From: Bacteroidales bacterium
Lineage (GTDB): Bacteria > Bacteroidota > Bacteroidia > Bacteroidales > Tenuifilaceae
Direction of reading: 5' to 3'
Assembly (NCBI GenBank): GCA_016931855.1
Contig: JAFGDZ010000026.1
Span: 31,472-95,471 of the forward strand
Length of the DNA: 64,000 nt
A model generated the notes under the pieces. It searched no databases and had not been told where the DNA came from. It worked only from the letters and a program-made list of their open reading frames with translations. Below, one piece after another: positions 1,573 to 42,529 of the stretch. Each line of letters begins with the position of its first letter. Within the stretch, counting starts at the first letter, position 1. The position numbers and the translations under genes were made by a program.

Positions 1573-1639
1573 AACTCTAAGAAAAAAGGTTACAAAACAA
1601 TGTTCTTGCCCCCGAGAACACAATTTACCTGTATGACCA

Positions 1640-1800
1640 TGGCAGGTTTCCTGACTCGCTTCGCTCCTAGGAAAGCCTTCCCATCCCATAAAAGAGATAG
1701 TGGCAGAGGGATTACCTAAAAGCACTAAATGAAGCTTACAGTAGCGGGCACTGTTCCGGAATTAAACCGGATTCCCTTTTATGTAGCAAACGAACGTTTA
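1640..1800 (-). ncRNA. cobalamin (B12) riboswitch upstream of cbiK
   Basis: The minus-strand sequence reads ...AAAGGGAATCCGGTTTAATTCCGGAACAGTGCCCGCTACT...CCTCTGCCACTATC. The conserved GGGAA..CCGGT..CCGG..CAG.GCCCGC core and a GCCACT B12 box sit immediately 5' of the cbiK start. Confidence 0.7.
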
Positions 1801-2039
1801 GCCACATCACCATAGCACTGGCAAAACTATATATTTAAATGGAATAAGAAAAGGAGAAAGAGGAACATAAGGAAAAGAGATAACCCCCAGCAACCCATTC
1901 AAAACAAACGATCCACCTCAAAAGTAACCTTAGGGGACAAAGGAGTTCTATTCTCCCTTAAGGCTCAGTATTATAACTCGCAGGCTCAAGCAACCCAGAA
2001 TAAAACCACATTCAGCCTACGATAGAATCAAAGAAAGGA

Positions 2040-5291: not shown

Positions 5292-5439
5292 ATTGGCTAA
5301 ATAGTTCCGCCATACGAGACCAAAGAAATAATCGGTTTTAACAAAAAGGAATAAGCTGTAAAACTAGATGCCAATACCATTTGGAGCGCCGATACATTTG
5401 CTTTTAGTCCTGAAAGCTGGATGTATTATTACTAAACCA

Positions 5440-5615
5440 TTTGGCAGGTCTTCTGGCTCTCCTCATGCTTAAGGGCCTTCCCATCGGCATTCAACCGAAA
5501 GTGGCCAAAGAATTCCTAAGCACTTTTTATGAGGATTACAGCTGCAGGTACAGCTCCGGATTCAAACCGGATTCCCTCTTAACGCAACAAGTGATACTCG
5601 TTTGCATTACCAAAA
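5440..5615 (-). ncRNA. cobalamin (B12) riboswitch upstream of the TBDR
   Basis: Minus strand reads ...GAGGGAATCCGGTTTGAATCCGGAGCTGTACCTGCAGC...TTGGCCACTTTCGG. Same conserved core and B12 box as the 1640-1800 element. Confidence 0.65.
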
Positions 5616-5737
5616 CGGGGGCAAAGCTACATGTTTTTATAAAAAACAAAAAGAAAAACGGAACTTTAACCAAACAACCCAACAAAAAAGACCCGAATTC
5701 CTCCTGTAATAGAAGGAATCCGGGTCTAATTATATTG

Positions 5738-21414: not shown

Positions 21415-21437
21415 TTTGATTTTTCTCTAAATGATTG

Positions 21438-21509
21438 TAGCCCGTAGGGGAATCGAACCCCTGTTACCAGGATGAAAACCTGACGTCCTAACCCCTAGAC
21501 GAACGGGCC
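21438..21509 (-). tRNA. tRNA-Glu (anticodon TTC), copy 1
   Basis: Reverse complement GGCCCGTTCGTCTAGGGGTTAGGACGTCAGGTTTTCATCCTGGTAACAGGGGTTCGATTCCCCTACGGGCTA. Confidence 0.8.
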
Positions 21510-21943: not shown

Positions 21944-21966
21944 CTCAATTATCTTCTAAATGATTG

Positions 21967-22038
21967 TAGCCCGTAGGGGAATCGAACCCCTGTTACCAGG
22001 ATGAAAACCTGACGTCCTAACCCCTAGACGAACGGGCC
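21967..22038 (-). tRNA. tRNA-Glu (anticodon TTC), copy 2 (identical to copy 1)
   Basis: Identical 72-nt sequence to 21438-21509. Confidence 0.8.
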
Positions 22039-24250: not shown

Positions 24251-24473
24251 TGTTTACAAGGATTAACATTACTGTTGGCTAAACGCAAAGGTATATTGAA
24301 GTTTTGGGAAGGCATTGCCAAACTTTATAAAAAACATTTTATTGCTGATTTGACAAAGAAAAAGGCTGTGTTAACGCTATTTCACACATCAACATAAACA
24401 AGTAGGGCTTTTTTAGGATATATTCACATCTGATTACTAAATTGCAATAAGCATAAACTAACCTAAGAACCCG

Positions 24474-25070
24474 ATGACAATACTAAACTTCACCGCGTGG
24501 TGGGAAGGTCTTTCAACCTTTGCTACCATTTACTGGATAATTGCAATCCCTGCATCGCTGATATTCATTATACAAATTGTGATGACCTTTATTGGTGCCG
24601 ACGTTGACTCCGATGGCATGGACGCCCTAGGCGACGCCGACCTAAGTATTGAGGCCGATGCTGGCATAGGATTCCAGCTAATTAGCTTCAAGAATTTTAT
24701 AGGATTCTTTACCATCTTTGGATGGGTAGGGCTAGCATGCATAGATGCAGAATTGCCCACCTATGCAACCATCATTATCTCCACAATAAGCGGTTTTTTG
24801 ATGATGGTGCTGATGTCTTCCATCTACTACTTTATGGGAAAACTTACCGAATCGGGAAACCTAAAACTACAAAACGCCATTGGCAAAACAGGCACGGTTT
24901 ACCTAAGAATTCCCGCCAAGCGCAATGGCATGGGCAAGGTTCAGGTGCAGTTCCAAGGTTACCAAACCCTTGATGCAATGACCGACGACCAAGAGGATAT
25001 TCCAACAGGAGCGATTGTTGAGGTTACTGGAGTTTACAATGACGACATACTCCTAGTAAAGAAATCGTAG
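24474..25070 (+). CDS. NfeD/YqiJ-like membrane protein (flotillin partner)
   Basis: Multiple TM helices then a C-terminal OB-fold (GKTGTVYLRIPAKRNGMGKVQVQFQG...GAIVEVTGV). Confidence 0.6.
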   Translation: MTILNFTAWWEGLSTFATIYWIIAIPASLIFIIQIVMTFIGADVDSDGMDALGDADLSIEADAGIGFQLISFKNFIGFFTIFGWVGLACIDAELPTYATIIISTISGFLMMVLMSSIYYFMGKLTESGNLKLQNAIGKTGTVYLRIPAKRNGMGKVQVQFQGYQTLDAMTDDQEDIPTGAIVEVTGVYNDDILLVKKS

Positions 25071-25127
25071 CAAATAGATTTTGGGAAAAACAGTGAGAGC
25101 CTTGATAATTCAAGGCTCTCGCTGTTT

Positions 25128-26066
25128 TCAGAACAACCACCTATCTCGGCTATTCCAAAGTCCTTCTATTCTATATGTAACCATAAGCTCATGCGTCCCG
25201 CTGTTTACTCTCGACAGCTTATTCAGGGTAAAGTCGAAGGCATAACCCACAGTTAGGTTCTTGTAAACCAATGCATGGAAGAAGATTCCTGCGGCATCGC
25301 CAACCCGATAGTGAGCACCCATAAAAAATCGCTCCATATAAATGGCTTTCCCTGCAATATCGGCTGACAGAGGGGAGCCACCCATAACACCCATTAGCAT
25401 TGACGGTTGAACAGCCCAGTCGGCATCAAGCCTAAACATGTAGCCCCCCATAAGGTAAACCTGGGGATTGTATGGCTCACTGCTCTCGCGATACTCCTTA
25501 TTCAAGCGGGGTTCTATTAGCCTTGGGATTGAAAATCCCGCGTAGTAAATGGGCGTGTACAGGTAAAAACCAACCCCCATATTGGGGCTAATCCTATTCT
25601 CGTTTCTCTGAAAATTGGGGTCAGATGGGTCGTTAACCTTTAGGTTACCAGTCTCAGCATTATAGCTGCTAATACCCGCCTTTAGGCCCATTGAGAGCCT
25701 AATCCCATCAAGAACGGTAATTTGATACGCATAAGATCCTGTAATGTGAGTATTGCGTAAAGGACCAGCCTTATCGGTCATCACATTAAAGCCTAACCCC
25801 ATGTTCTGCCTAATGTAGGGTGTATGCGCACCAAAGCTGTACGATGCTGGCGCTCCATCTACCCCAACCCACTGGTGGCGGGTAAGCAAGCTTAGGTTTA
25901 ACCCATCTACAGTTCCTGCTATTGCGGGGTTAAACGCAATGGGGTTCTGTAAATAGTAGGTAAACATAGGATCCTGCTGCGCATTTGCTTGAACTGAAAC
26001 AATCAGCCCAAACAGTGCAACACACAATTTAAAGCCTTTAGTTATAATTATCCTTTTCATGACCAA
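25128..26066 (-). CDS. sprF: T9SS membrane protein PorP/SprF family
   Basis: 312 aa with signal peptide and beta-barrel-like composition. Conserved PorP/SprF N-terminus (QQDPMFTYYLQNPIAFNPAIAG). Lies immediately downstream of the SprB-like gene, as in sprB-sprF operons. Confidence 0.8.
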   Translation of the reverse strand: MVMKRIIITKGFKLCVALFGLIVSVQANAQQDPMFTYYLQNPIAFNPAIAGTVDGLNLSLLTRHQWVGVDGAPASYSFGAHTPYIRQNMGLGFNVMTDKAGPLRNTHITGSYAYQITVLDGIRLSMGLKAGISSYNAETGNLKVNDPSDPNFQRNENRISPNMGVGFYLYTPIYYAGFSIPRLIEPRLNKEYRESSEPYNPQVYLMGGYMFRLDADWAVQPSMLMGVMGGSPLSADIAGKAIYMERFFMGAHYRVGDAAGIFFHALVYKNLTVGYAFDFTLNKLSRVNSGTHELMVTYRIEGLWNSRDRWLF

Positions 26067-26073
26067 TCTCCGA

Positions 26074-29000
26074 CTAACGTTTTAAGAACACATTACCAGT
26101 ATATGACTTGGACTTTTCGCCCTTAACCTCTATGATATAGTAATAGGTACCCGTTGGAAGCGTTTTCCCCACAGATAGAGCTATATTTGAACGACCATCC
26201 CAATCGTTGGTATAATCGTCGCTTGAGTAAACAATGTTACCCCAACGATTGTAGATTTTAACCGAAGCCCTTCCGAAGAACTTAAGCCCCTTAATTTCGA
26301 AGTAATCGTTTATGCCATCGCCATCGGGAGAGAACCCTTCGGGGATAAAGAGCGCATCGGGAACCGGCTCCTCAACAGTAATTCGGACCACAGCCTGAGC
26401 ACAATTAGACTCGCCCATGCAAATGGAGTAGGTTAGAGAATCGGAACCAACAAAGTCGATATAAGGCGTGTAGGTTAATACTCCATCGCTACTCATTGTG
26501 GCATAGCCATTTTTTACATCGTTATGGATATAAATTGTACATGATGATTTTTCGATGCCAGTATCATTCATTAGTACATTGACATCAACAGTGGTATTCA
26601 TCATCATGTTAACGGCATCGTCCACAGCCACAATAGTTGGTAGGTTCTCAACAACGTTAACAATTACCCTTGCAATGGAATAGTCGCCATCAAAATCGGT
26701 TATGCGATAGAAGAACACCACACTACCCATATATCCAGACACTGGAGTAAATAGGATGGTGTTATCGTCATTTACTACAATGGCACCTTCGGTATTACTT
26801 GGTGCTGTTTCTACAGTAAGGAATACGGGAGCATCGTTTAATCCTGTATCGTTGGTTAAAGCAACAATATTGATAGGAGTATCAACAAATGTTTCTACCT
26901 CATCATCATTGGCGTCAGGTAGATAGTTAACATCCTTTTTAACGTTAACCACAACAGAAGCCTCATCGGAGTCACCATTAGCATCAACTACCATATAGTT
27001 AAATGTAGCAGCACCAACATAGTCGCCGGATGGAGTAAATACAATCGTATTATCCTCATTTACCGAAACAGTACCCTGTGCCACATGTGGAGCCTGAGAT
27101 ATGCTAACCAATACGGGTTGATCTTCCAAACCATAATCATTCTCCAGCACGGCAATAGTAACTGCAGCACTCTTACTGGTTCCTCGCCTATCATTATTAG
27201 CAACGGGTAGGTGGTTCACCTCGCCCTCAGCCAGCACGGTGATGGTTACCGTGGCGGTGGCGTAGTCGCCCTGCGCATCGGTTACGGTGTAGCCAAAGGT
27301 GGTTACACCAGAGAAGCCAGCAGCTGGGGTGAAGGTTACCGTGTTATCGGCGTTAACCGCTACTGTTCCGCTGGTTGCGTTTGTTGATATGGTTACTACA
27401 ACAGGAACATCCTCTAGGCCTGAATCGTTGGCCAGTACGTCAACCGTTACAGCGGTTTGGTACTCCGTGCCACGGCTATCGGCGTTGGCAACGGGGAGAT
27501 GGTTAACCTCGCCCTCGGCCAGCACGGTGATGGTTACCGTGGCGGTGGCGTGGTCGCCCTGTGCATCGGTTACGGTGTAGCCAAAGGTGGATACGCCTGA
27601 AAAGCCTGCGTCTGGGGTAAAGGTTACCGTGTTATCGGCGTTAACCGCTGCTGTTCCGCTGGTTGGGTTTGTTGATATGGTTACTACCACAGGTGCATCC
27701 TCTAAACCAGCATCATTGGCTAGTACATCAACGGTTACGGCGGCTTGGTACTCCGTGCCACGGCTATCGGCATTGGCAATTGGTAAATGGTTCACCTCGC
27801 CCTCGGCCAGCACGGTGATGGTTACCGTGGCGGTGGCATGGTCGCCCTGCGCATCGGTTACGGTGTAGCCGAAGGTGGCTACGCCCGAGAAGCCAGCTGC
27901 TGGGGTAAAGACTACTGTGTTATCGGCGTTAACCGCTGCTGTTCCGTTGGTTGCGTTTGTGGATATGATTACTACCACAGGTGCATCCTCCAAACCAGTA
28001 TCATTCGCCAAAACATCAACGGTGACTGGTGTTTGGTACTCCGTACCACGGCTGTCGGCGTTGGCAACGGGTAGGTGGTTCACCTCGCCCTCGGCCAGTA
28101 CAGTGATGGTTACCGTGGCGGTGGCATGGTCGCCCTGCGCATCGGTTACGGTGTAGCCAAAGGTGGATACGCCCGAGAAGCCAGCGGCTGGGGTAAAGGT
28201 TACCGTGTTATCGGCGTTAACCGCAGCTGTTCCGCTGGTTGGATTTGTGGATATGGTTACTACCACAGGAGAATCCTCTAAACCAGTATCATTCGCTAAA
28301 ACATCAACGGTTACACCAGTTTGGTAATCCGTCCCGCGGCTATCTGCGTTGGCAATAGGTAGGTGGTTCACCTCGCCCTCGGCCAGCACGGTGATGGTTA
28401 CCGTGGCGGTGGCGTGGTCGCCCTGCGCATCGGTTACGGTGTAGCCAAAGGTGGCTACACCAGAAAAGCCTGCGGCTGAGGTGAAGGTTACCGTGTTATC
28501 GGCATTAACCGCGGTTGTTCCATTAGCTGATGCGGTGGATATGGTTACTACCACAGGAGCGTCTTCCAAACCAGTATCATTAGCTAAAACATCAACGGTT
28601 ACTGCGGTTTGGTACTCCGTGCCACGGCTATCTGCGTTGGCAACAGGTAGGTGGTTCACCTCGCCCTCAGCCAGCACGGTGATGGTTACCGTGGCGGTGG
28701 CATGGTCGCCCTGCGCATCGGTTACGGTGTAGCCAAAGGTGGCCACGCCCGAGAAGCCTGCGGCTGGGGTGAAGGTTACCGTGTTATCGGCGTTAACCGC
28801 AGCAGTTCCGCTGGTTGGGTTTGTTAATATGGTTACTACCACAGGAGCGTCCTCTAAACCAGTATCATTCGCCAAAACGTCAACGGTCACTGGAGTTTGG
28901 TACTCGGTACCGCGGCTATCGGCGTTGGCTACAGGTAAATGGTTCACCTCGCCCTCGGCCAGCACGGTGATGGTTACCGTGGCTTCTGACACATCTCCAT

Positions 29001-32000
29001 TAAAATCTCTAATTCTATACTTAAAGGTAGCAATACCACTAAAATCCTGCGCTGGACTAAACTGCACCAGATTTCCAGCAATAACAATGGCATTACCAAC
29101 TGTAGAGGATGCGTTCTCGCTAATAAACACGGAGATTGGAACATCGTTTAGGCTTGCATCATTCTCCAAAACATCAACCGTTACAGGAGTTTCAAACTCT
29201 GTACCTGCAAAATCATCAACAGCAATTGGAAGTGAGTTCCCGCCATCGCTAACAATAACCGAAACGGTTGCTAGATCAAAATCGCCATCAACATCAGAGA
29301 GCTTATACACAAAGGTCATTGTGCCCACATAGAAGTTTGATGGGGTAAAAGTTATGGTATTATCGTCATTTACAGTAGCCTCACCAAACAGCGGAGGATC
29401 AACAATTGCTATTGCACCAAAACCATCGTCGAGGTTGCTGTCATTGTCTAGCACATCTAACACAGCAGGGATATTTACCTGGGTGCTAAACTCATCATCG
29501 TTGGCAACAGGCACTGTGTTAATACCATCCTTAACGCGAACGGTAACGGTGGCAAAGTCGGAATCGCCATTGGCATCAGTAACCTGATACTGGAATCCAG
29601 ATAACCCAACAAACTCAGCAACAGGAGTAAAGGTTATGGTACTATTGGCATTCACCACAACGGCACCCTGCTCTGCGGCTGGATTCTGCTTTACGGTTAG
29701 GGTTATTGGCGTATCATCGGCACCAGTAACATTGGCCATAATATCAATGGTTACTGGGATGTTTTTGCTTGTAGCAACAGAGAAATCGTTAGCATTTGGC
29801 AGCGCATTTGGCTTATCAACAACGCTAACGGTTACAGTGGCCACATCGTTATCGCCCTGAGCATCGGCAAGCAGATAGGTAAACGTATCGGTTCCCTTAA
29901 ACCAAGGGGATGGAACGTACCTTACGGTTCGGTTTGCATTTACCGTTGCTGTTCCGTACCGCGGACTAGCAAGTACCGTGATGCTTCCAAAGCCATCCTC
30001 AAGACCAGTATCGTTAACCAATACATTAATATCCTTGGCAGTGTTTACGGATGTTTGCTCATTATCATCAACAGCAACAGGGATGTGATTCACAACACCC
30101 TCTGGCAGAACCTCAACAGAAACGGTAGCTGCGCTAAAGTCGCCATTCTTATCGGTTACGGTGTACTGGAAGGTTGCCATGCCAACGTAACCCGATGCGG
30201 GCGTATAGGTAATGCTGTTATCGGCATTTACCGCAGCCGTTCCCGATGTTGGTGCAGCGCTTACCGATACAACCAAAGGGACATCATCAATTCCTGTGTC
30301 GTTTTGCAGAACATCAATAACAATAGGAGTTTGATACTCGGTTGCGCGACTATCATTAACCGCTACAGGAACGCTATTTGGCCTATCAATCACGTTTACG
30401 GTGATGGTGGCAGCATCCCATACGCTGTACTTAGCATCAAGAACTCGATATTGGAAAGTTAGAGTGCCCTTGTACAACGGCGATGGGGTATAAAGAATGG
30501 TATTCTGAGCCGTAACAGCAGCCGTACCAACTACAGGGGCAGTGTGAACGTACAATCCGCCAAACTGGGTAAGGTTGGTTACATGCTCAAGCGCCTTAAT
30601 ATCTACAGGAACGCCCACATAAGTATTCACCTCAAAATCCGAAGCAACAGGGTAAACAATGGTCTCCCCCTCCTCTAGTACGGTAATGCTAACCGTTGCC
30701 GAGGCGCTCTTACCAGCCGCATCGGTTACTGTATAGCCAAAGGTTACGGCACCGCTAAAACCTGTAGCAGGTGTAAAGTGGATTGTGTTATTGGCATTTA
30801 CCGTTGCGGTACAACCTGCAACACTAGGAGCCGAGGCTATGGTAACCACAACTGGGGTGTTGGACAGATTGGTGTCGTTGAATAGCACATCGATATCCGT
30901 TGGGGTCTCGTACAGAACAGATGTAACATCATCAATAGCAACTGGAGTTATATCTAAGTTCTCAACAATATTAACGGTTATAACCCCTGCATCCCAAACG
31001 TTATAGTGAGCATCAAGTACTCTATACTCAAAGGTTTGAGTTCCCTTGTAGAAGTTCGATGGGGTGTAAGTTATAGTATTATCGGCGTTAACCACCGCTG
31101 TACCTAGCGCCGGTTGCGTGTGAATAAACAACCCTCCAAACAGGGTTAGGCTGGTTACATGCTCAAGTGCAGGGATAACAACTGGTGTGTTAACCCGTGT
31201 TGTAACGGTAAAATCGGCAGCTACAGGATAAACAACAGTTTCGCCACTGGCCAGAACAGTTACAGCAACACTAGCCGATGCGCTCTTACCCGCAGCATCA
31301 ACCAATGTGTAACCAAAGTTTACTGCGCCGCTAAATGCAGCAGCAGGCGTAAACCTTATGGTATTATCGGCATTAACGGTAGCGGTGCAACCGGCAACAT
31401 CGGGCTGGGTTGATACGCTCACGGTAATAGGGGTATTATCTAGTCCAGTATCGTTATACAGAACGTTGATATCCTTAGGCGTTTCAAACACCACCGTTGC
31501 ATTATCGTTAACAGCAACAGGAGTAACATCAAGGAACTCAACAATTGATACGCTTACTGTACCCGTATCAAACTGACCATCGGTATCCTCAACTACATAT
31601 ATAAAGGTATCGTTACCCTTTATTCCGTTAGATGGTGTATAGATAACGGTATTGCTTGCGGTTACCACTGCTGCACCAAGAGAAGGTGAGGTCTTAATCC
31701 AGATTCGCTTAAAGCCATCCTCAAGACCTGTAACATAATCAAGTACGGCAATTTCCTTTGAAGTATTTATCCTTGTTGATACCGATATATCTCCAGCAAC
31801 AGGCTGATGGTCGGTTCCAGTAGGCTTAACCACTACGGTTATGGTTGCCACGTTGGAGTTATCGTCGTTATTATCGGTTACCTGATATCCAAACACCTCC
31901 GTTCCTATCCAATCGGCCTTAGGAGTGTAGCGCACAAGCGGCTGATTTGTTACTGGGTCCAGTGTTACTGTGGCAACACCGTTGGCTGGGTCTGTTGAGA

Positions 32001-38000: not shown

Positions 38001-40593
38001 CGTAAAGCGTGTAGCTGCTAGATGCATCGGTTAGCGCTGCGCTCGATTTTGCAAATGCCCTATCGGTAGATATAACCGTACCATTCTTACTCCACTTATA
38101 CGATGCGTTTACCTCTGTAGCAGTAAGGTTAATAGCCTCGCCAACACACACATCTAAATCGCCAGCAAAGGTTGTAAGAGGCGACACCTCCACAGAGAAG
38201 TTGCGAGTTGATGTGCAACCATCCTTTGATACGGTTAGCGACCAATCGCCAACATTAACGCTACCAGCAGCCTGCTGAACGCTTTGTGATGTTGACTTAA
38301 CCGTTGCTCCGTATTTCCATGTGTAGGCTGCGCCAATCTCCTTAGCAATAAGGTAAAGAGGCTCTCCAACACAGACTGTAGTATCACCACTAAACTGAAG
38401 GTCGGGCCCAACATAAACGGTAAACTGCTCAATAACCTGGCTAAAGCCATCGTCAACCATCAGGTAAATAATTGCCCTACCAGAACGATTGGCAACTGGT
38501 GTTACAGCAACAGTTCTATTAGTACCTGTACCTCCAATGGCAATACCAGTATGAGGGACAAAAGTTGGGTCGGCAGAGAAACCAGTAACAACCAAATCTT
38601 CAGGAGCCGATTCCGAGTCACCAACAGTGAATGCTATTGGAGCTGTAGCGCTATTCGTACAAAGCGTTTGGTCGTCAACTTTAGTTATTGTTGGCGGAGT
38701 GTTTATTATTACGTAAACATTCTCCTGATTATTGCTCCACTTAACGCCATCGCTAGTTGCACGCCAAATAAAGCTAGTTTTGCCACTCCAGTTAACATTT
38801 GGAGTAAAAACAAGGTTTGGGAGCTGTGCTCGGGATATTATTTGGTTTACCGTAACTGCGGCACCCGACAGCCTAAGCACTCCGTTTGCTGGCAGTGAAC
38901 GCACCTGAATGCTGTGCAATGCAGCATTCTGAGCATGAAAGAACTTATAATCAAAGTCCTCAACATCAAAAGATAGCGGTGTATTTTTGGGTCCTTCAAC
39001 ATAAATATCGCCCACCCAAGGGGCATTTCCATCCACACACTTGGTTTCGCTATTTTGAATCTTCAGGTTGATTTTGGAGTAGCCTAAATCAATGGCATTA
39101 AACCATGTATTCATGGAATTTAAATTCCCATTATGATTTGAATTCTGTAAACTTGGGTTCCATGACCATATCCTAGGAATCTGACTATCAATAAGTAACT
39201 GCTTCTTTTGTGTTGCATCCATTAGGCCAGAACCAGTTCCGTCGCCCCAAGGATCAATCTGAGTATCGTCCCAGTAAATCGTGGTTTTAAGCTTATTAAA
39301 CGGACGGATAGATGACGTTACAATCCCATCAAGTTGCTCCACGTCGTACATTGGGAAATGAGCAGAACCACGAGCCAAGAAACTTGCCGAAGCCCAATAC
39401 CTTCCATTACTAACCTCGGCACCTACATCCGACTTAAAATCCCAGAGCACATAATTCAACCCCTTTTTCATCTCCCGGTAAATTACCCTATCGCTACCCG
39501 ATGCTGAGTACTGGTTATCGCCATCAAGGTCAATTAGTACTACGGCAAAGCCATCGGTATTCGTCTCAATTTTATAAAAGGTAGCATCTTCGTAAGGGCA
39601 ATCGAGCCTATTTTTCTCCAGCACAACTAGGCTATAGTCTATTGGTTCAAGCAAAGGGCTTCTATTGTAGTTGTAGTCGTAAATTAAAGTATCCTCGGCC
39701 CAAACCTGTACTTTAGGTGGAGCCAAAGTGGTATTAGGCCAAACCGATCTATCGGGATCGTTTAGGAAGACCCTGTAGTCGGACACTCCACTTCCCATCT
39801 CATCGCCCATTAAGCTCTGTGCGCGCTCAATGTAGGTCTTCTCGTCGGTATATGTTTTAACCCCATGACTATTTGCGGTAAACACAAATGAGTATGGGTA
39901 CATCTGAAAGTTTACCTTATTAATAAACTCATCGGATGTAAACACATAAAAATGAGCGTTAACCCTGTACTGGTCAAAGCTGGTTGTGGTAAACGACCAG
40001 CCATAGGACCATAGCCTACCAGCCGACACGTTTGGCTCTCCAGGGTTTGTTACTACGTTCTTTGAGGCATCGGTAACCGTTGCATCAAAAAACTCCAGTG
40101 CAAAACGTTTATCATCGTAATGTTCAAATTCAACATAGTAGTTCCCCGTTAGCCCTGCAGGTATAACAATAGGATTGTACCCACCCGATATTACCGTTCC
40201 ATTTAGAATAGCTCCATTTGGCCCCGTTACCGCTTGTGTGTAGTTATCAATATAACCTACATCTGTAACCTCATCAAGCCACTTGGGGCCATACACTACA
40301 TTCCCTGCTGGGTCTTTAACCTGGAAGCGAACCCAATACGGGTTTGTTTCTGCATCTCCTCCATAGGACTGGGTATTCATCTTTAACCCTAGATGAAGCT
40401 TTTCATCCTTTTTAAGGTAAACATTAATTCTTTCGTTTTCGGCACAACCAAACAGACCAAAGTTATTGCCTACAAATGTGTTAAACTCCAGCCACAACCT
40501 ATCATTAGAGTTTGGCATTAGCTGCTTTGTTCCCTCCTGCGCCAGTAGCTGCAAGGACATTAGCATTGCTAGAACGAGTAAAAGTTTTCTCAT
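26074..40593 (-). CDS. sprB: giant SprB-like cell-surface adhesin (about 4839 aa) with T9SS type-B C-terminal domain
   Basis: Signal peptide MRKLLLVLAMLMSLQLLAQ (start re-called to Met16). Contains about 17 Calx-beta-like repeats (..TFTVKL.S.P...V.I...S....EG.V..) and about 20 cadherin/VCBS-like ~96-aa repeats (P.A..D......T...IDVL.ND.G.D....). C-terminus FSPDGDGINDYFEIKGL...IYNRWGNIVY...WDG...TGTYYYIIEV matches the gliding-motility C-terminal domain. Confidence 0.85.
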   Translation of the reverse strand: MRKLLLVLAMLMSLQLLAQEGTKQLMPNSNDRLWLEFNTFVGNNFGLFGCAENERINVYLKKDEKLHLGLKMNTQSYGGDAETNPYWVRFQVKDPAGNVVYGPKWLDEVTDVGYIDNYTQAVTGPNGAILNGTVISGGYNPIVIPAGLTGNYYVEFEHYDDKRFALEFFDATVTDASKNVVTNPGEPNVSAGRLWSYGWSFTTTSFDQYRVNAHFYVFTSDEFINKVNFQMYPYSFVFTANSHGVKTYTDEKTYIERAQSLMGDEMGSGVSDYRVFLNDPDRSVWPNTTLAPPKVQVWAEDTLIYDYNYNRSPLLEPIDYSLVVLEKNRLDCPYEDATFYKIETNTDGFAVVLIDLDGDNQYSASGSDRVIYREMKKGLNYVLWDFKSDVGAEVSNGRYWASASFLARGSAHFPMYDVEQLDGIVTSSIRPFNKLKTTIYWDDTQIDPWGDGTGSGLMDATQKKQLLIDSQIPRIWSWNPSLQNSNHNGNLNSMNTWFNAIDLGYSKINLKIQNSETKCVDGNAPWVGDIYVEGPKNTPLSFDVEDFDYKFFHAQNAALHSIQVRSLPANGVLRLSGAAVTVNQIISRAQLPNLVFTPNVNWSGKTSFIWRATSDGVKWSNNQENVYVIINTPPTITKVDDQTLCTNSATAPIAFTVGDSESAPEDLVVTGFSADPTFVPHTGIAIGGTGTNRTVAVTPVANRSGRAIIYLMVDDGFSQVIEQFTVYVGPDLQFSGDTTVCVGEPLYLIAKEIGAAYTWKYGATVKSTSQSVQQAAGSVNVGDWSLTVSKDGCTSTRNFSVEVSPLTTFAGDLDVCVGEAINLTATEVNASYKWSKNGTVISTDRAFAKSSAALTDASSSYTLYVKKDGCENTSPSFAISVVAAPNAGLTVQGSTVDPGKSATVTVVNPQDGITYSLYSGVTLISSGIAVGGTDLVLDVPSSNLSIGTNTFQVRANNGNCEIELTNPGIITVNQPGITVSTTSIATTEGGVATQFTIVLDTEPSANVTIAIFSGNTAEGTVSPTSITFNATDWNTPRSISVTPVRDWVVDGPQTYTVTVAAAVSGDANYNGLDAADVTVTNTDADVASVVVSKTNLSTSEAGGNDSFTLVLTSKPASNVDISLSGIVSTEGSVTPLVYTFTPSNWDAEQLVTVNGADDLVDDDDVTYTINLSAASADANYNGISISSVSVTNTDNDNAGISVSKTAITTSEAGSGVSFTVVLDTKPTINVPVTVASGNTGEGTISAGTLTFTPTNWNSPQTVTVTPVNDNVDDGDIIYQVNLSVASGDAKYIGKAAQVSVTNTDDDTAGIVLSKTTATTTEGSGTDVVQVKLSSSPTAEVRISVVSSNTNEGTVSVSELVFNSTTWNTNQPITITGVNDSSIDGDTPYTITFSVTAGDAAYLAVPSRQVNATNTDNDIAALVITKTNLTTSEDGTADSFGVSLSSNPKNTVTVSITGFNTLEGSLDKTSLEFTTANWSVAQVVTVTGKDDVVADGNKTYTLTATASSADTDYHGVTGSPISVTNIDNDTPGITVSTATLQTTEGASNTFSISLSSQPVKDVTINVSSSDLTEGTLSVSNVTFTPTDWAAKTVTVNGVVDDVDDGDQTYTVVLANSISDDPNYTNLDVADVSVTNIDINTAGITVSAISGNTGENLTAATFTVKLKSKPVANVVITSTSKDATEGSVTSNATISIAPADWDTPVTVTVTGENDFVADGDVDYAIGVTVSSTDDKYNGFVITDVAVTNTDNDAVGVTIDVNDGLETSEDETSDTFTVKLTSEPTAEVSIAITSGNALEGVLDKSVLKFNSTNWDAAQTVTLTGVNDDVADGSQTFSISFAATSADPHYNAIPIANISATNTDNDAVGVTVSAISGNTTEAGGTATFTVKLNSEPVNAVTITSVSDNSAEGTVSLGASLIFDNANWNVAQTVTVKGANDFVDDGDVNYTISLSVSSSDDGYDGLALPKVSVTNTDDDNAGVILSTLSLSTAEPNVNASFTVKLSSKPLGDVTVSVTSSDITEGTVPALPITFTSATWDTEQTVTITAADDNLFDGDIAYQIAVSVASVADALYDALADKSIAVVNADNDVVGVEVIPTAGLYTTEAGESVTFKVSLRSEPLNPVTISLSSSNISEGLVTSVTRGSVNTATNEATVTFEPSEWNSPVTVTVTGVDDDVDDGDVAYSIITGKAQSFDGDYNNLDVVDVSLTNKNNDSFGSTVSPVSITLDESGVSKPFTVRLNSRPTTDVTFNLSSSKENRATVTPASVTFTPDADSWKTPVEFTVSPVANSIDDGDGEVTIVISTAVSTDGKYKTHNPVDVAVTVVDDDAKGIAVSPISGNTSEEGATATFTVVLNSEPTGDVVIGISSSNELEGTVSPASIEFTPLNWSTPQTVTVTGVDDLVADGSSTYYIDFAETVSTDENYNGITLTSVEVVNTDDDSPGVNRFPITNLSTTEAGGTCQVSVRLSSMPTADVTINVSSSNTAEGVVDASQLLFTPANWNTEQPITVTGVDDNLPDGDVAFNLQFSITTADVGYAALVLSDVPVTNRDDSSPRATDDAAATDEDTPVTIDVLANDLGLDYGSLAVTIATAPVQGSVVVNADNTITYTPNKEFNGTESFEYSVCDANGACDVATVSVETTFINDTPIANADSRGATKNILAVVDVLFNDQNLWDGDLVVTISEQSANGFAEANTDNTVNFSPAPDFVGVTTFKYRVCDAQSDCSEATVTMTVRENNLVPVANADAATAFKNTPTNIMVLANDVLGNGANILEVNANPLHGTALVNASGYIVYTPATDYVGPDAFTYLLKDVDGDQSLATVSITVTERPNALPVANAVSTATEMNIPVDIDVLFYCSGLEDGVKAITFSTDPANGVATVTLDPVTNQPLVRYTPKADWIGTEVFGYQVTDNNDDNSNVATITVVVKPTGTDHQPVAGDISVSTRINTSKEIAVLDYVTGLEDGFKRIWIKTSPSLGAAVVTASNTVIYTPSNGIKGNDTFIYVVEDTDGQFDTGTVSVSIVEFLDVTPVAVNDNATVVFETPKDINVLYNDTGLDNTPITVSVSTQPDVAGCTATVNADNTIRFTPAAAFSGAVNFGYTLVDAAGKSASASVAVTVLASGETVVYPVAADFTVTTRVNTPVVIPALEHVTSLTLFGGLFIHTQPALGTAVVNADNTITYTPSNFYKGTQTFEYRVLDAHYNVWDAGVITVNIVENLDITPVAIDDVTSVLYETPTDIDVLFNDTNLSNTPVVVTIASAPSVAGCTATVNANNTIHFTPATGFSGAVTFGYTVTDAAGKSASATVSITVLEEGETIVYPVASDFEVNTYVGVPVDIKALEHVTNLTQFGGLYVHTAPVVGTAAVTAQNTILYTPSPLYKGTLTFQYRVLDAKYSVWDAATITVNVIDRPNSVPVAVNDSRATEYQTPIVIDVLQNDTGIDDVPLVVSVSAAPTSGTAAVNADNSITYTPASGYVGMATFQYTVTDKNGDFSAATVSVEVLPEGVVNHIPVAVDDNEQTSVNTAKDINVLVNDTGLEDGFGSITVLASPRYGTATVNANRTVRYVPSPWFKGTDTFTYLLADAQGDNDVATVTVSVVDKPNALPNANDFSVATSKNIPVTIDIMANVTGADDTPITLTVKQNPAAEQGAVVVNANSTITFTPVAEFVGLSGFQYQVTDANGDSDFATVTVRVKDGINTVPVANDDEFSTQVNIPAVLDVLDNDSNLDDGFGAIAIVDPPLFGEATVNDDNTITFTPSNFYVGTMTFVYKLSDVDGDFDLATVSVIVSDGGNSLPIAVDDFAGTEFETPVTVDVLENDASLNDVPISVFISENASSTVGNAIVIAGNLVQFSPAQDFSGIATFKYRIRDFNGDVSEATVTITVLAEGEVNHLPVANADSRGTEYQTPVTVDVLANDTGLEDAPVVVTILTNPTSGTAAVNADNTVTFTPAAGFSGVATFGYTVTDAQGDHATATVTITVLAEGEVNHLPVANADSRGTEYQTAVTVDVLANDTGLEDAPVVVTISTASANGTTAVNADNTVTFTSAAGFSGVATFGYTVTDAQGDHATATVTITVLAEGEVNHLPIANADSRGTDYQTGVTVDVLANDTGLEDSPVVVTISTNPTSGTAAVNADNTVTFTPAAGFSGVSTFGYTVTDAQGDHATATVTITVLAEGEVNHLPVANADSRGTEYQTPVTVDVLANDTGLEDAPVVVIISTNATNGTAAVNADNTVVFTPAAGFSGVATFGYTVTDAQGDHATATVTITVLAEGEVNHLPIANADSRGTEYQAAVTVDVLANDAGLEDAPVVVTISTNPTSGTAAVNADNTVTFTPDAGFSGVSTFGYTVTDAQGDHATATVTITVLAEGEVNHLPVANADSRGTEYQTAVTVDVLANDSGLEDVPVVVTISTNATSGTVAVNADNTVTFTPAAGFSGVTTFGYTVTDAQGDYATATVTITVLAEGEVNHLPVANNDRRGTSKSAAVTIAVLENDYGLEDQPVLVSISQAPHVAQGTVSVNEDNTIVFTPSGDYVGAATFNYMVVDANGDSDEASVVVNVKKDVNYLPDANDDEVETFVDTPINIVALTNDTGLNDAPVFLTVETAPSNTEGAIVVNDDNTILFTPVSGYMGSVVFFYRITDFDGDYSIARVIVNVVENLPTIVAVDDAVNMMMNTTVDVNVLMNDTGIEKSSCTIYIHNDVKNGYATMSSDGVLTYTPYIDFVGSDSLTYSICMGESNCAQAVVRITVEEPVPDALFIPEGFSPDGDGINDYFEIKGLKFFGRASVKIYNRWGNIVYSSDDYTNDWDGRSNIALSVGKTLPTGTYYYIIEVKGEKSKSYTGNVFLKR
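27190..28990. repeat. array of 6-7 near-identical 288-bp (96-aa) tandem repeats inside the sprB-like gene
   Basis: The protein repeat ATVTITVLAEGEVNHLPVANADSRGTEYQT.VTVDVLANDTGLEDAPVVVTIST....GTAAVNADNTVTFTPAAGFSGVATFGYTVTDAQGDHAT recurs. Antisense ORFs in the track fall at 27299, 27587, 27875, 28451 and 28739, spaced 288 bp or a multiple of it. DNA copies are about 90% or more identical. Confidence 0.85.
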
Positions 40594-41116
40594 ATAGTTA
40601 TTGTAAAGAATACGCATAAACACGAATACCACCAGCATTTAAAACACTGGTGGTATTCTTTTATTAAACCAAAATTAAAGACAAGTGAAAAACACAAATT
40701 GCAAAAACCATTACCAACAAGTTCTCTTTACATTATAGAGATAATAAATCCAAAAGGCAATTTGCGAGACTGAACCGCTGCAGAAAGCATCCAACACTAC
40801 TTTTAAAATTTGCAACATCCAAGTTTCCAAACCAATATTACGAAAAAAAGCAACACCAATGATTAGGATTACCAAAAATATTGACGAATATCACCTTTTG
40901 AGCGAAACCCTCGTCTGCTTAATAATTAGAACCAACCAGCAATAAGCATGTGCCAGCACATGCCTAAGCATTAAAAGTCTTTAACACAAAACAAAAGCAA
41001 ATAGGGCAAAGGGTAACGCTTTATAACTATATTTGCTAGAAGTGCAACAGAGTTAACGCCCTAAACACAAAGCATCAGTTAAGTATTAAATATCTAACCT
41101 TTAACCTAGATTAGCC

Positions 41117-42529
41117 ATGAGTCAATTTTTACTACTAGCAATTATTGCTGGTGTTGTTTTCGTCTTCATCCTAATTGTTTCGCTATTCAAGCGATACAAG
41201 CGATGCCCATCAGACCGAGTACTTGTTGTTTACGGAAAAGTAGGCAAGGGAAAGTCTGACGAAGCACGGTCGGCAAAGTGTATTCACGGGGGAGCCGCCT
41301 TTATTTGGCCCGTTATTCAGGATTACGCATTCCTTAATCTAACCCCGCTCTCTATTGAGATTAACCTAACCAATGCGCTTAGCCAGCAGAACATTCGTGT
41401 TGATGTGCCCTCACGCTTTACCGTGGGTATCTCTACAGAGGCAGGCATTATGGACAATGCTGCCGAGCGCCTGCTGGGCCTAAGTCAGGACGACATAAGC
41501 AACCTTGCTAAGGATATAATCTTTGGTCAGCTCCGTTTGGTTGTTGCCACCATGGAGATTGAGGAGATTAACAACAACCGCGACAAGTTTCTTGCCGCAG
41601 TATCGGCAAACGTTGAGGCCGAGCTTAAAAAGATTGGTCTTAAACTGATCAACGTAAACGTTACCGATATCAACGACGAGTCGGGCTACATTGAGGCTCT
41701 AGGTAAAGAGGCTGCAGCTAAGGCTATTAACGATGCCAAAAAGAGCGTTGCCGAGAAGAACCGCGATGGCTCTATTGGTGAGGCTAACGCATTCCGCGAC
41801 CAACGTGTACAGGTATCGCAAGCCGATGCTACTGCCGTTGAGGGGGAGAACCAAGCAAAGATTACCATTGCCAACTCTAATGCAACCCGCCGTGAGAGCG
41901 AGGCCGAAGCAGAACGTAAAGCGGTTGCTGCCGAAAAGGTAAGCGAGGCAAAAGCGCTTGAGGAAGCTTACGCTGCCGAACGTAGCGCAGAGACTGCCCG
42001 TGCCGAACGCGAAATGGCAACCCAAAAAGCAGACATTGTAGTTCCTGCCCAAATTAACAAGGAAAAGATTGAGATTGATGCAGAGGCTATGGCAGAGCAA
42101 ACACGCCGCCATGCCCGCGGTGAATCCGATGCTATTTTCATGAAGATGGAAGCGGAAGCTAAGGGTATATTCGAAATCCTAACCAAACAAGCTGAAGGTT
42201 TTGAGATGCTTAGCAAAGCTGCCGGAAACTCTCGCGATGCTGTTATGATGATGATTGCCGACAAGCTTCCTGAACTTGTTAAAACTCAAGTTGAAGCCGT
42301 TAAGAACCTTAAAATTGATAAGGTTACCGTTTGGGATAACATGTCGGGTGGTAAGGATGGCAAAACCCCAGCAACAGCAAACTTCCTTTCTGGTATGCTT
42401 GGCGCAATACCTCCTTTCGAGGAGCTATTTAAGATGGCCGGAATGGAGCTACCAAACTACCTAAAAGGTAAATCCATTGAGGATGTAAAGGCTGAGCCTA
42501 TTGACAGCAAGGAGAATAAGGAAGAGTAA
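41117..42529 (+). CDS. flotillin / SPFH-domain protein (YqiK-like)
   Basis: N-terminal TM, SPFH/band-7 domain, long Ala/Glu-rich coiled coil (AEAEAERKAVAAEKVSEAKALEEAYAAERSAE). Confidence 0.85.
   Translation: MSQFLLLAIIAGVVFVFILIVSLFKRYKRCPSDRVLVVYGKVGKGKSDEARSAKCIHGGAAFIWPVIQDYAFLNLTPLSIEINLTNALSQQNIRVDVPSRFTVGISTEAGIMDNAAERLLGLSQDDISNLAKDIIFGQLRLVVATMEIEEINNNRDKFLAAVSANVEAELKKIGLKLINVNVTDINDESGYIEALGKEAAAKAINDAKKSVAEKNRDGSIGEANAFRDQRVQVSQADATAVEGENQAKITIANSNATRRESEAEAERKAVAAEKVSEAKALEEAYAAERSAETARAEREMATQKADIVVPAQINKEKIEIDAEAMAEQTRRHARGESDAIFMKMEAEAKGIFEILTKQAEGFEMLSKAAGNSRDAVMMMIADKLPELVKTQVEAVKNLKIDKVTVWDNMSGGKDGKTPATANFLSGMLGAIPPFEELFKMAGMELPNYLKGKSIEDVKAEPIDSKENKEE

What the first reader, a model, noticed from the sequence alone, without database searches (positions are those of the whole stretch)
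24474..42529. sprF and SprB-like adhesin block sits between normally adjacent NfeD/YqiJ-like and flotillin genes
NfeD/YqiJ-like (24474-25070, +) and flotillin/YqiK-like (41117-42529, +) genes are usually neighbours. Here they are separated by 16 kb that consists of the minus-strand sprB-like and sprF pair. This suggests the adhesin cassette was inserted, or is exchangeable, at this locus.
Basis: inference. Interest (0 to 1): 0.6.

Follow-up and report, generated by a model that had tools for sequence, protein, structure and literature searches.

The report
Adhesin gene pair splits flotillin operon
In one uncultured Bacteroidales lineage, an old, stably inherited 16-kb insertion carrying a giant surface-adhesin gene and its secretion partner separates two membrane-protein genes that are direct neighbours in every other relative examined; this is a real but fairly ordinary genome rearrangement.

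Summary
A 198-aa NfeD-type membrane protein gene (24474-25070, +) and a flotillin gene (41117-42529, +) lie 16,046 bp apart. The only genes between them, both on the minus strand, are a PorP/SprF-family gene and a 4,839-aa type IX secretion (T9SS) type-B-CTD adhesin gene.

In 83 of 83 related loci outside this lineage, including Bacillota, the two genes are adjacent on one strand, with a gap of 2-367 bp (median 34).

The split arrangement is not an assembly artefact. It is colinear across both junctions in at least four independent metagenome assemblies (79-93% nucleotide identity). It is therefore an old insertion, fixed in a roughly genus-level clade and inherited vertically. It is not a strain-variable cassette.

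No integrase, flanking repeats or overall composition shift marks the insert. Orthologous modules in sister lineages sit elsewhere, mostly next to aroA.

Both split genes remain under strong purifying selection. A conserved bidirectional terminator and a conserved promoter-like block now make them separate transcription units.

Two labels need correcting. The small protein shows no detectable similarity to E. coli YqiJ. The "SprF" lacks the C-terminal Cys-x-Cys motif of true gliding SprF.

The adhesin gene is a recombination mosaic with a hypervariable tip. Interest is low to moderate.

The parts
24251..24473 (+). Upstream region of the nfeD-like gene. It is also a second synteny breakpoint relative to the unsplit relatives.
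   Evidence: 94% identical to L082, including a roughly 80-nt invariant block. L001-L005 have different upstream genes (LMW phosphatase, PALP enzyme), whereas the window has Mur ligase and GNAT.
24474..25070 (+). NfeD2/YuaF-type small membrane protein (198 aa): three hydrophobic N-terminal stretches followed by a soluble, beta-rich C-terminal domain of about 70 aa.
   Evidence: Weak PF01957 hit (E 1.4e-3, below cutoff). Hydropathy profile. A homologue lies directly upstream of flotillin in 83 of 83 loci. dN/dS is 0.06-0.11 within the split clade.
25087..25128 (.). Bidirectional intrinsic-terminator hairpin between the convergent nfeD and sprF stop codons.
   Evidence: 19-nt arms with a 4-nt loop, flanked by an A-run and a T-run. 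Predicted free energy is -34.4 kcal/mol, z -7.4. The stem is retained in L081 and L082, with changes on both arms in L082.
25128..26060 (-). PorP/SprF-family outer-membrane carrier gene (310 aa from ATG 26060), starting 13 bp downstream of sprB.
   Evidence: PF11751 E 1.5e-71 and TIGR03519 254.8 bits. There is no Cys-x-Cys in the C-terminal tail, and 0 of 120 closest homologues have one.
26074..40593 (-). Giant T9SS adhesin gene (about 4,839 aa from the MRK start). The mechanical ORF extends to 40638.
   Evidence: 23 Big_9/tandem-95 repeats, plus Cadherin_4/5 and CshA repeats. Repeat map. The start is supported by homologue N-termini.
26077..26346 (-). Type-B C-terminal sorting domain (CHU_C / TIGR04131).
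   Evidence: PF13585 E 8.3e-26; TIGR04131 56.9 bits against a cutoff of 35; residues 4765-4854 of the long ORF.
27200..28983 (-). 6.2 tandem copies of a 288-bp unit (96 aa); a high-GC block inside sprB.
   Evidence: TRF score 2693 with 88% matches. Amino-acid copies are 84-96% identical. GC is 0.555 against a gene background of 0.448 +/- 0.024.
38644..40593 (-). Non-repetitive N-terminal head domain of the adhesin (about 650 aa). The first 200 aa (39994-40593) are hypervariable.
   Evidence: No internal repeats and no Pfam domain. Homologues at 45-62% identity occur in other Bacteroidales. Residues 1-200 are only 60-66% identical to clade relatives, about the same as to out-of-clade homologues (56-57%).
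40594..40658 (-). Invariant 5' leader of sprB with a 16-bp stem-loop (40624-40658).
   Evidence: 100% identical in the window, L097 and L101, although the surrounding DNA is 67-77% identical. Centroid free energy -23 kcal/mol, z -4.7. Weak, sub-threshold FopS-like Rfam hit.
40659..41116 (.). AT-rich divergent control region between sprB and flotillin, with conserved blocks. These include Bacteroidetes -7-type TAnnTTTG motifs at 41028-41035 (+, towards flot) and 40873-40880 (-, towards sprB). A remnant of the ancestral nfeD-flot spacer lies at 41095-41107.
   Evidence: Alignment of three lineages. Motif scan. TAACCTTTAACCT matches the L004 spacer sequence immediately upstream of its flot ATG.
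41117..42529 (+). Flotillin (SPFH2-type) gene.
   Evidence: PF01145 E 5.9e-28. Similarity to FloT (NF058507, 172 bits, below the equivalog cutoff). 25% identity to E. coli YqiK, E 2e-18. dN/dS 0.02.

Best explanation
In the common ancestor of a roughly genus-level clade of uncultured Bacteroidales, related to Tenuifilaceae, a self-contained two-gene T9SS adhesin module was relocated into the 35-70-bp spacer of the otherwise universally contiguous nfeD2-flotillin operon. The module consists of a giant type-B-CTD repeat adhesin and its cognate PorP/SprF-family carrier, together with its own upstream control region and a terminator. It has been inherited vertically since then.

How the module most likely works (inferred from family knowledge):
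- The adhesin is exported by Sec, using the signal peptide MRKLLLVLAMLMSLQLLA|QEG.
- It crosses the outer membrane through the T9SS by means of its type-B CTD.
- It is held on the cell surface by the co-transcribed PorP/SprF-like beta-barrel.
- That carrier lacks the Cys-x-Cys tail that links true SprF to the GldK gliding track, so the adhesin is more likely a static surface adhesin than a gliding-motility adhesin.

Consequences for the host operon:
- nfeD transcription now ends at a conserved bidirectional hairpin.
- Flotillin is probably read from a new conserved promoter-like block about 85 nt upstream of its ATG (inferred).
- Both genes remain functional (shown by purifying selection).

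After insertion, homologous recombination among related lineages made sprB a mosaic. It has an ancient, divergent tip and promoter allele next to a recently homogenised repeat body.
For: Adjacency is ancestral. All 83 loci have the two genes on the same strand with a gap of 2-367 bp, none has a SprF hit, and Bacillota are included. The literature reports that SPFH2 flotillins form operons with weakly conserved NfeD2 proteins (PMC2636767).

The split is real and shared:
- L081 and L082 show nfeD followed by sprF and sprB, with upstream synteny preserved.
- L097-L099 and L101 show sprB divergent from flot, followed by TonB, a nitroreductase and EamA.
- Single colinear blastn alignments cross both junctions.

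Inheritance is vertical. SprF is 87-93% and SprB about 88-98% identical, similar to the flanking genes.

The breakpoint is localised. TAACCTTTAACCT is retained just upstream of the flot ATG, as in L004.

Both genes remain functional. dN/dS is 0.06-0.11 for nfeD and 0.02 for flot, the same as in unsplit relatives.

The two transcription units have their own signals. The terminator is conserved, with changes on both arms in L082 that keep the stem. The block CTATATTTGCT is invariant.

The module has moved during evolution. SprF orthologues at 66-76% identity lie in the order sprB-sprF-aroA-Pro_dh-DprA-TatD in three lineages and next to AFOR in a fourth. Head-domain homologues lie in three further contexts.

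The secretion and anchoring model rests on published work. Type-B CTD cargo binds its cognate PorP-like protein (PMC9143113), and the Cys-x-Cys requirement comes from PMC12635249. The motif is absent from the window protein and from 0 of 120 homologues.

sprB is a mosaic. dS is 0.09-0.13 in the body, about 0.5 in flot and TonB, and saturated in the head.
Against: - No mechanism of insertion can be read from the sequence. There is no integrase or transposase, and no target-site duplication. The one 9-bp shared word is at chance level and is not conserved.
- Synteny is also broken immediately upstream of nfeD relative to L001-L005. The history may therefore involve more than one event, or a larger rearrangement, rather than a clean cassette insertion.
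- Whether the aroA-adjacent site is empty in this genome is unknown, so relocation cannot be told apart from duplication or horizontal acquisition.
- The promoter and terminator assignments are motif and structure predictions only.
- The NfeD identity of the 198-aa protein rests on synteny and architecture, not on significant sequence or fold matches.
Confidence: 0.72

Rival explanations
1. The nfeD-flot spacer is a hotspot where alternative adhesin cassettes are swapped between strains.
For: The 5' 1.6 kb of sprB and the adjoining intergenic DNA are far more divergent between clade members (67-79% nucleotide identity; residues 1-200 are 60-66% identical) than the flanks. The repeat body, by contrast, is 94-98% identical. 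Recombination therefore does act at this locus. The module also occupies different sites in different genera.
Against: All five independent assemblies that carry the split have the same orthologous sprF and sprB, colinear through both junctions. None of the 83 unsplit loci has any gene in the spacer; the largest gap is 367 bp. There are no recombinase genes, flanking repeats or tRNA at the junctions. GC and GC3 of sprF and most of sprB are within or near the background range.
Confidence: 0.1
2. The arrangement arose by a larger, multi-step chromosomal rearrangement, such as nested inversions or movement of nfeD together with its upstream block, rather than by insertion of a discrete two-gene cassette.
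For: There are synteny breaks on both sides of nfeD relative to L001-L005. Downstream of flot, gene order is shared (TonB, nitroreductase, LPG synthase, GATase, CheR and others). Upstream of nfeD it is not.
Against: The upstream region also varies among the unsplit relatives themselves, so that break may be independent. Exactly one functional unit, sprB-sprF with its own leader and terminator, lies between two genes that keep their original relative order and orientation. Two inversions sharing end points are formally equivalent to a transposition.
Confidence: 0.15
3. The juxtaposition is an assembly chimera caused by the repetitive giant gene.
For: Giant repeat genes often break or mis-join metagenome assemblies. 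Most homologues in the database are partial proteins lying at contig ends.
Against: Both junctions lie in unique sequence. They are reproduced in independent assemblies from JGI, NCBI, ENA and Logan at 79-93% identity.
Confidence: 0.01
4. The 198-aa protein is not a flotillin partner, so no functional pair has been split.
For: The Pfam NfeD hit is below the curated cutoff. There is no profile similarity to E. coli YqiJ or YbbJ and no match to any PDB NfeD structure. Structure models were too poor to test the fold.
Against: The gene sits immediately upstream of flotillin, on the same strand, in 83 of 83 loci across Bacteroidota and Bacillota. Its architecture, three hydrophobic stretches followed by an all-beta C-terminal domain, matches the published NfeD2 description, which also stresses very low sequence similarity.
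Confidence: 0.07

Closest known systems
Flavobacterium johnsoniae sprB-sprF (part of the sprCDBF operon)
   Same: A giant, highly repetitive cell-surface protein with a T9SS type-B CTD, followed on the same strand by its cognate PorP/SprF-family outer-membrane protein. No porE-like gene is adjacent (PMC9143113).
   Different: No sprC or sprD lies upstream; the neighbour is a divergent flotillin gene. The carrier lacks the C-tail Cys-x-Cys that bonds SprF to GldK and is needed for gliding. The repeats are of the Big_9/tandem-95/cadherin-like type. The 650-aa head domain has no Pfam family. Orthology to SprB itself was not tested.
Porphyromonas gingivalis PorP-PG1035 (a type-B CTD cargo anchored by a PorP-like protein)
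   Same: The inferred mode of surface anchorage is the same: a type-B CTD protein bound to a PorP-family 14-strand barrel (PMC9143113).
   Different: No PorE-like peptidoglycan anchor is encoded next to this pair, and the cargo is about 4,800 aa rather than small.
nfeD2-flotillin operons (Bacillus subtilis yuaF-floT; E. coli yqiJ-yqiK)
   Same: In all relatives, a small membrane protein with a C-terminal beta domain is encoded directly upstream of an SPFH2 flotillin. The flotillin is homologous to YqiK (E 2e-18). The operon principle is described in PMC2636767.
   Different: Here the pair is separated by 16 kb and by a terminator. The small protein has no detectable sequence similarity to YqiJ (DUF1449) or YbbJ. 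Similarity to YuaF could not be tested directly.
Bacteroides FopS/GibS small RNAs (RF04319, RF04182)
   Same: The sprB leader at 40616-40695 (-) aligns over the full FopS model. It shares the first 10 nt of the seed (GUGUUUUUCA) and has a single-stranded 5' part followed by a hairpin (PMC11697453).
   Different: The score of 28.7 bits is well below the gathering score of 56, and the window-wide E-value is 3.2. The seed-like part is not conserved in L097 or L101, whereas the hairpin is invariant. There is no clear U-tract. This is a lead, not a membership.

Membership tests
T9SS type-B CTD cargo protein | C-terminal type-B sorting domain (TIGR04131 / PF13585) scoring above the curated cutoff. 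| tested here: met
   TIGR04131 56.9 bits (cutoff 35); PF13585 90.4 bits (cutoff 27); residues 4765-4854.
T9SS type-B CTD cargo protein | N-terminal Sec signal peptide. | tested here: met
   MRKLLLVLAMLMSLQLLA followed by QEGTKQ. The mature N-terminus is conserved in homologues L087-L090. This was judged by inspection, without a dedicated signal-peptide predictor.
T9SS type-B CTD cargo protein | A cognate porP/sprF-like gene adjacent and co-oriented. | tested here: met
   sprF starts 13 bp after the sprB stop on the same strand. The same pairing is seen in L091-L096, L103 and L106-L108.
PorP/SprF family (PF11751, TIGR03519) | Full-length match above the curated cutoff. | tested here: met
   PF11751 241.5 bits (cutoff 22.3), covering profile positions 2-273 of 273; TIGR03519 254.8 bits (cutoff 90.55).
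SprF sensu stricto (gliding-adhesin carrier disulfide-linked to GldK) | Invariant Cys-x-Cys motif in the periplasmic C-terminal tail (PMC12635249). | tested here: not met
   The only Cys in the protein lies in the signal peptide, and the tail ends ...EGLWNSRDRWLF. None of the 120 closest homologues has CxC in its last 30 residues.
SprB orthologue (F. johnsoniae gliding adhesin) | sprC and sprD upstream in the same operon, and sequence orthology to SprB. | tested here: not met
   The gene upstream of sprB is a divergently transcribed flotillin, with no sprC or sprD. Direct comparison with the SprB sequence was not possible with the sequences at hand.
NfeD (PF01957) / NfeD2 (YuaF-type) | Pfam NfeD C-terminal domain at or above the gathering score. 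| tested here: not met
   19.2 bits against a cutoff of 29.1. Only 3 of 24 family members hit at E < 0.01.
NfeD (PF01957) / NfeD2 (YuaF-type) | Three N-terminal hydrophobic stretches followed by a soluble all-beta (OB-fold) C-terminal domain. | tested here: inconclusive
   Hydropathy gives segments at 12-46 and 94-119, and a weaker one at about 64-90 is visible in the sequence. The AF2 models show five strands but have pLDDT 46-47. Foldseek gave no hit with E < 1; several OB-fold proteins were among the non-significant top hits.
NfeD (PF01957) / NfeD2 (YuaF-type) | Encoded directly upstream of, and co-oriented with, an SPFH or flotillin gene. | tested here: met
   True in 83 of 83 related loci. 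In the window's own clade the two genes are separated by the insertion.
YqiJ (DUF1449) | Detectable homology to E. coli YqiJ. | tested here: not met
   hhalign of the 24-sequence profile against YqiJ gives probability 0.5% and E 0.13 over 25 columns.
Flotillin / SPFH2 | N-terminal membrane anchor, Band_7 domain and a long Ala/Glu-rich coiled-coil region; homology to YqiK and FloT. | tested here: met
   PF01145 98.5 bits. Similarity to YqiK, E 2e-18. The FloT equivalog model scores 172 bits against a cutoff of 700, so this is a family member but not a FloT equivalog. The sequence itself is shown.
Mobile genetic element / genomic island | Integrase or transposase gene, flanking direct or inverted repeats, tRNA at a junction, and a composition shift. 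| tested here: not met
   Only two genes lie in the insert. No significant shared repeat links the junctions. The nearest tRNAs are 2.4 kb away, with the GNAT and Mur ligase genes lying between them and nfeD. sprF has GC 0.461 and GC3 0.486 against background values of 0.448 and 0.473.

The most novel reading that the evidence does not exclude
The right-hand end of the insert behaves as a separately exchangeable allele. This end comprises the adhesin tip (first 200-500 residues) and the sprB/flot divergent control region. It is bounded by a 65-nt leader hairpin that is 100% invariant and may be a FopS-like regulatory RNA. On this reading, lineages swap adhesin binding specificity by recombination while keeping one fixed post-transcriptional control element. 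The shared 480-bp divergent region could also couple flotillin and adhesin expression.
Probability: 0.12. Interest if true: 0.5.

Novelty: new member of a known kind. Interest (0 to 1): 0.25.

Why it matters
The case gives a clean natural experiment. The nfeD-flotillin pair is one of the most rigidly conserved two-gene operons, yet both genes stay under equally strong purifying selection after being separated by 16 kb and a terminator. Co-transcription is therefore not essential for the partnership.

It also documents a subfamily of PorP/SprF carriers without the Cys-x-Cys track-attachment motif, paired with multi-thousand-residue adhesins. This is relevant for telling gliding adhesins from static ones in uncultured Bacteroidales.

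Finally, it shows intragenic mosaicism in a giant adhesin gene: a hypervariable tip next to a homogenised repeat body.

None of this changes current concepts. It is a lineage-specific rearrangement built from known parts.

Tried and rejected
- Exact-sequence look-up of the window's flotillin found nothing, so the source genome is not in the collection.
- A target-site duplication or inverted repeats linking the two junctions were sought. Only a 9-mer at chance level was found, and it is not conserved in relatives.
- The NfeD fold test failed. Single-sequence models of the whole protein and of the C-terminal domain had pLDDT 46-47, and Foldseek gave only E > 1.
- A profile search of PDB sequences found no NfeD or YuaF structure. 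hhalign against E. coli YqiJ and YbbJ was negative.
- The Rfam hit to FopS/GibS at the sprB leader is sub-threshold and not significant window-wide, so it is kept only as a lead.
- Non-coding similarity between the window's sprB upstream region and that of head-domain homologues L087-L090 was not evident by eye, and the leader hairpin pattern occurs only in clade members.
- The sigma-70 promoter scanner was not used, because Bacteroidota promoters differ. TAnnTTTG motifs were searched instead.


Full report
**1. What is in the window**

- A 198-aa ORF lies at 24474-25070 (+).
- A PorP/SprF-family gene lies at 25128-26066 (-) (PF11751 E 1.5e-71; TIGR03519 254.8 bits).
- A 4,854-aa ORF lies at 26074-40638 (-). 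It has 23 Big_9/tandem-95 repeats, cadherin-like and CshA repeats, and a T9SS type-B sorting domain (TIGR04131 56.9 bits, cutoff 35).
- A Band_7/flotillin gene lies at 41117-42529 (+) (PF01145 E 5.9e-28). It is 25% identical to E. coli YqiK (E 2e-18).

Homologue N-termini show the likely true starts. For sprF this is ATG 26060. For sprB it is ATG 40593, which gives MRKLLLVLAMLMSLQLLA|QEGTKQ.

Flanking genes are ordinary chromosomal ones. Upstream are asd, hflX, lpxK, sppA, upp, radC, two tRNA-Glu genes, a GNAT gene and a Mur ligase gene. Downstream are TonB, a nitroreductase, EamA and others.

**2. Are the two genes normally neighbours?**

Yes, strongly. A scan of 185,579 species-representative genomes with the flotillin gave 582 confirmed relatives, of which I examined the best 80. 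Three further metagenome loci were added.
- In all 83 loci a homologue of the 198-aa protein lies immediately upstream of flotillin on the same strand.
- The gap is 2-367 bp, median 34, and no locus has a SprF hit.
- The set includes Marinilabiliales, Flavobacteriales, Cytophagales and several Bacillota.
- The gap in the window is 16,046 bp.

This agrees with published work. SPFH2 flotillins form operons with weakly conserved NfeD2 proteins such as YuaF and YqiJ (PMC2636767).

**3. Is the split real, and how widespread is it?**

The split is real and is shared by a clade.
- Two metagenome contigs reproduce the left junction. L081 is 93% identical in nucleotides. L082 (JABNAD010000135.1) is 85-93% identical and has the same upstream genes.
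- Using the more variable TonB gene as a handle, I recovered the right junction. It is present in an 83-kb ENA contig and in Logan assemblies (L097-L099, 85-87% identity), and in a more distant one (L101, 79%).
- In these right-junction loci a giant cadherin/Big_9 gene is transcribed divergently from flot across a spacer of about 470-490 bp, followed by the same downstream genes. The gene is 4,672 aa in L097.
- Single blastn alignments run straight through both junctions.

The arrangement is therefore not a chimera. It is shared by at least four or five lineages separated by dS of about 0.5-1.

The closest unsplit relatives are L001-L005, with flotillin 89-91% and TonB 43-47% identical. They share the downstream gene order with the window but not the upstream one. 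The upstream side also varies among those relatives themselves.

**4. Anatomy of the junctions**

Left junction. Between the convergent nfeD and sprF stop codons lies a 19-bp-stem hairpin (25087-25128). It is flanked by an A-run and a T-run, with a predicted free energy of -34.4 kcal/mol and z -7.4. The stem is kept in L081 and L082, and in L082 both arms have changed. This is the signature of a bidirectional intrinsic terminator.

Right junction. sprB and flot are separated by an AT-rich divergent region with several conserved features.
- Conserved blocks include an invariant CTATATTTGCT. It contains the Bacteroidetes -7 consensus TAnnTTTG at 41028-41035, 82 nt upstream of the flot ATG.
- A similar motif faces sprB at 40873-40880. 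It is conserved in two of the three lineages.
- The 13 nt TAACCTTTAACCT, about 10-22 nt upstream of the flot ATG (41095-41107), matches the native nfeD-flot spacer of L004. This places the right breakpoint inside the original short spacer.

Mobile-element hallmarks are absent.
- There is no integrase or transposase gene.
- No significant direct or inverted repeat links the junctions. One shared 9-mer is about what chance gives and is not conserved.
- No tRNA lies at either junction.

Composition is unremarkable. sprF has GC 0.461 and GC3 0.486, within the background of 0.448 +/- 0.024 and 0.473 +/- 0.038. Most of sprB is close to background. Only the 288-bp x 6.2 tandem block at 27200-28983 is anomalous, with GC 0.555.

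**5. Where does the module live elsewhere?**

SprF homologues at 66-76% identity are in the range expected for orthologues in sister genera, given the other shared genes.
- In three separate lineages they lie in the order sprB-sprF-aroA-Pro_dh-DprA-TatD-asparaginase.
- In a fourth they lie next to AFOR, radical-SAM and Memo genes.

Homologues of the unique 650-aa head domain, at 45-62% identity and all partial at contig ends, sit after an efflux operon, after thrS-infC-rpmI-rplT-dapB-lepB, or near a GH31 gene. None is near a flotillin gene.

The module therefore changes place over evolutionary time. Its position in the window is the derived one. The aroA-adjacent site is the best candidate for the older position (inference).

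**6. Consequences for the split genes**

Within the split clade, nfeD has dN/dS of 0.06-0.11 and flot 0.02. These values are indistinguishable from unsplit relatives (0.05-0.07 and 0.02). The region upstream of nfeD is 94% conserved between the window and L082.

Both genes are evidently still in use, and co-transcription is dispensable. Independent transcription from the conserved promoter-like block is inferred, not shown.

**7. What the labels can and cannot bear**

The 198-aa protein.
- It has the NfeD2-type layout: hydrophobic segments at 12-46, about 64-90 and 94-119, then a C-terminal domain of about 70 aa that models as five strands.
- Sequence evidence is weak. PF01957 scores 19.2 bits against a cutoff of 29.1, and only 3 of 24 family members hit it.
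- A profile search found no NfeD structure in the PDB.
- hhalign found nothing against E. coli YqiJ (DUF1449) or YbbJ.
- The structure models were too poor (pLDDT 46-47) for a fold test.
- I therefore call it NfeD2-type on the basis of synteny and architecture. The 'YqiJ-like' label is not supported by sequence.

The 'sprF'.
- It is a solid PorP/SprF-family member.
- True SprF carries an invariant C-tail Cys-x-Cys that forms the disulfide link to GldK and is required for gliding (PMC12635249).
- The window protein has no cysteine outside its signal peptide, and none of its 120 closest homologues has the motif.
- With no sprC or sprD and no porE-like neighbour, the pair is best described as a type-B-CTD adhesin with its cognate PorP-like carrier (mechanism from PMC9143113). 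It is probably a static adhesin rather than a gliding one (inference).

**8. Is anything exchangeable?**

The module as a whole is not, but sprB is a mosaic. The comparison below is between the window and L097.
- Synonymous divergence (dS) is 0.09-0.13 for residues 1000-2600 and 0.26-0.33 for residues 500-1000.
- It is saturated for residues 1-500.
- Residues 1-200 are only 60-66% identical in amino acids. That is no closer than to out-of-clade homologues, which are 56-57% identical.
- The flanking genes have dS of about 0.5-1.1.

This pattern fits recent recombinational homogenisation of the repeat body, together with an old, divergent tip and promoter allele.

Embedded in the divergent tract is a 65-nt stretch (40594-40658) that is identical in all three lineages. 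It folds into a 16-bp stem-loop with z -4.7. It gives a full-length but sub-threshold match to the Bacteroides FopS sRNA model: 28.7 bits against a gathering score of 56, with E 0.011 locally and 3.2 window-wide (PMC11697453). I record this as an unexplained conserved leader element.

**9. Verdict**

'Inserted' is supported as an ancient event fixed in one clade. 'Exchangeable cassette' is not supported, except as recombination within the gene.

All the parts belong to known kinds: a type-B CTD adhesin with a PorP-like carrier, and an NfeD2-flotillin pair. The event is a lineage-specific rearrangement with no identifiable mobile machinery. It is a tidy example showing that the nfeD-flotillin partnership survives loss of operon linkage, but it is not a surprising discovery. 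Interest is about 0.25.

Noticed in passing
window 40594-40695 (- strand): The sprB 5' leader contains a 65-nt stretch that is 100% identical in three lineages whose surrounding DNA is only 67-77% identical. It includes a 16-bp stem-loop. The stretch gives a full-length but sub-threshold Rfam match to the Bacteroides FopS sRNA (28.7 bits against a gathering score of 56) and shares the first 10 nt of the FopS seed.
   Followed up: partly
window 38644-40593 (sprB head) compared with 33000-38500 (sprB body); L097 and L101: The adhesin gene is a recombination mosaic. The repeat body has dS of about 0.1 against a relative whose flanking genes have dS of 0.5-1.1. The first 200 residues are only 60-66% identical, as divergent as homologues from other genera.
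   Followed up: yes
window 27200-28983: Six near-identical 288-bp (96-aa) tandem repeats inside sprB have GC 0.555 against a gene background of 0.448. The copy number appears to differ by about one unit from L082, and the total protein length differs between lineages (4,854 aa against 4,672 aa).
   Followed up: partly
window 25128-26060 and proteins P0053-P0172: A whole subfamily of PorP/SprF proteins (120 of 120 closest homologues) lacks the C-tail Cys-x-Cys of gliding SprF. Most of those listed instead end in a conserved ...WN....W[RK]F motif. Each one whose genomic context was examined is paired with a multi-thousand-residue Big_9/cadherin adhesin.
   Followed up: partly
window 1624-1829 (-) and 5426-5629 (-): Two cobalamin riboswitches (91.9 and 83.1 bits) lie upstream of CbiK-like chelatase genes and a TonB-dependent receptor.
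   Followed up: no
window 21437-21509 and 21966-22038 (-): Two tRNA-Glu(UUC) genes with identical Rfam scores lie about 530 bp apart, in a 1.2-kb low-GC stretch without long ORFs. This suggests a tandem duplication.
   Followed up: no
window 9289-14967 (+): A second large probable T9SS substrate (1,892 aa) has lamin-tail and Big_5 domains and a weak CHU_C hit just below the cutoff. It has no adjacent PorP/SprF gene.
   Followed up: no
L005 7775-7915 (nfeD-flot spacer of an unsplit relative): The 141-bp spacer is made of short tandem motifs (CGGAAG/ACCGAAG and AATAACT repeats), unlike the 35-40-bp spacers of its relatives.
   Followed up: no
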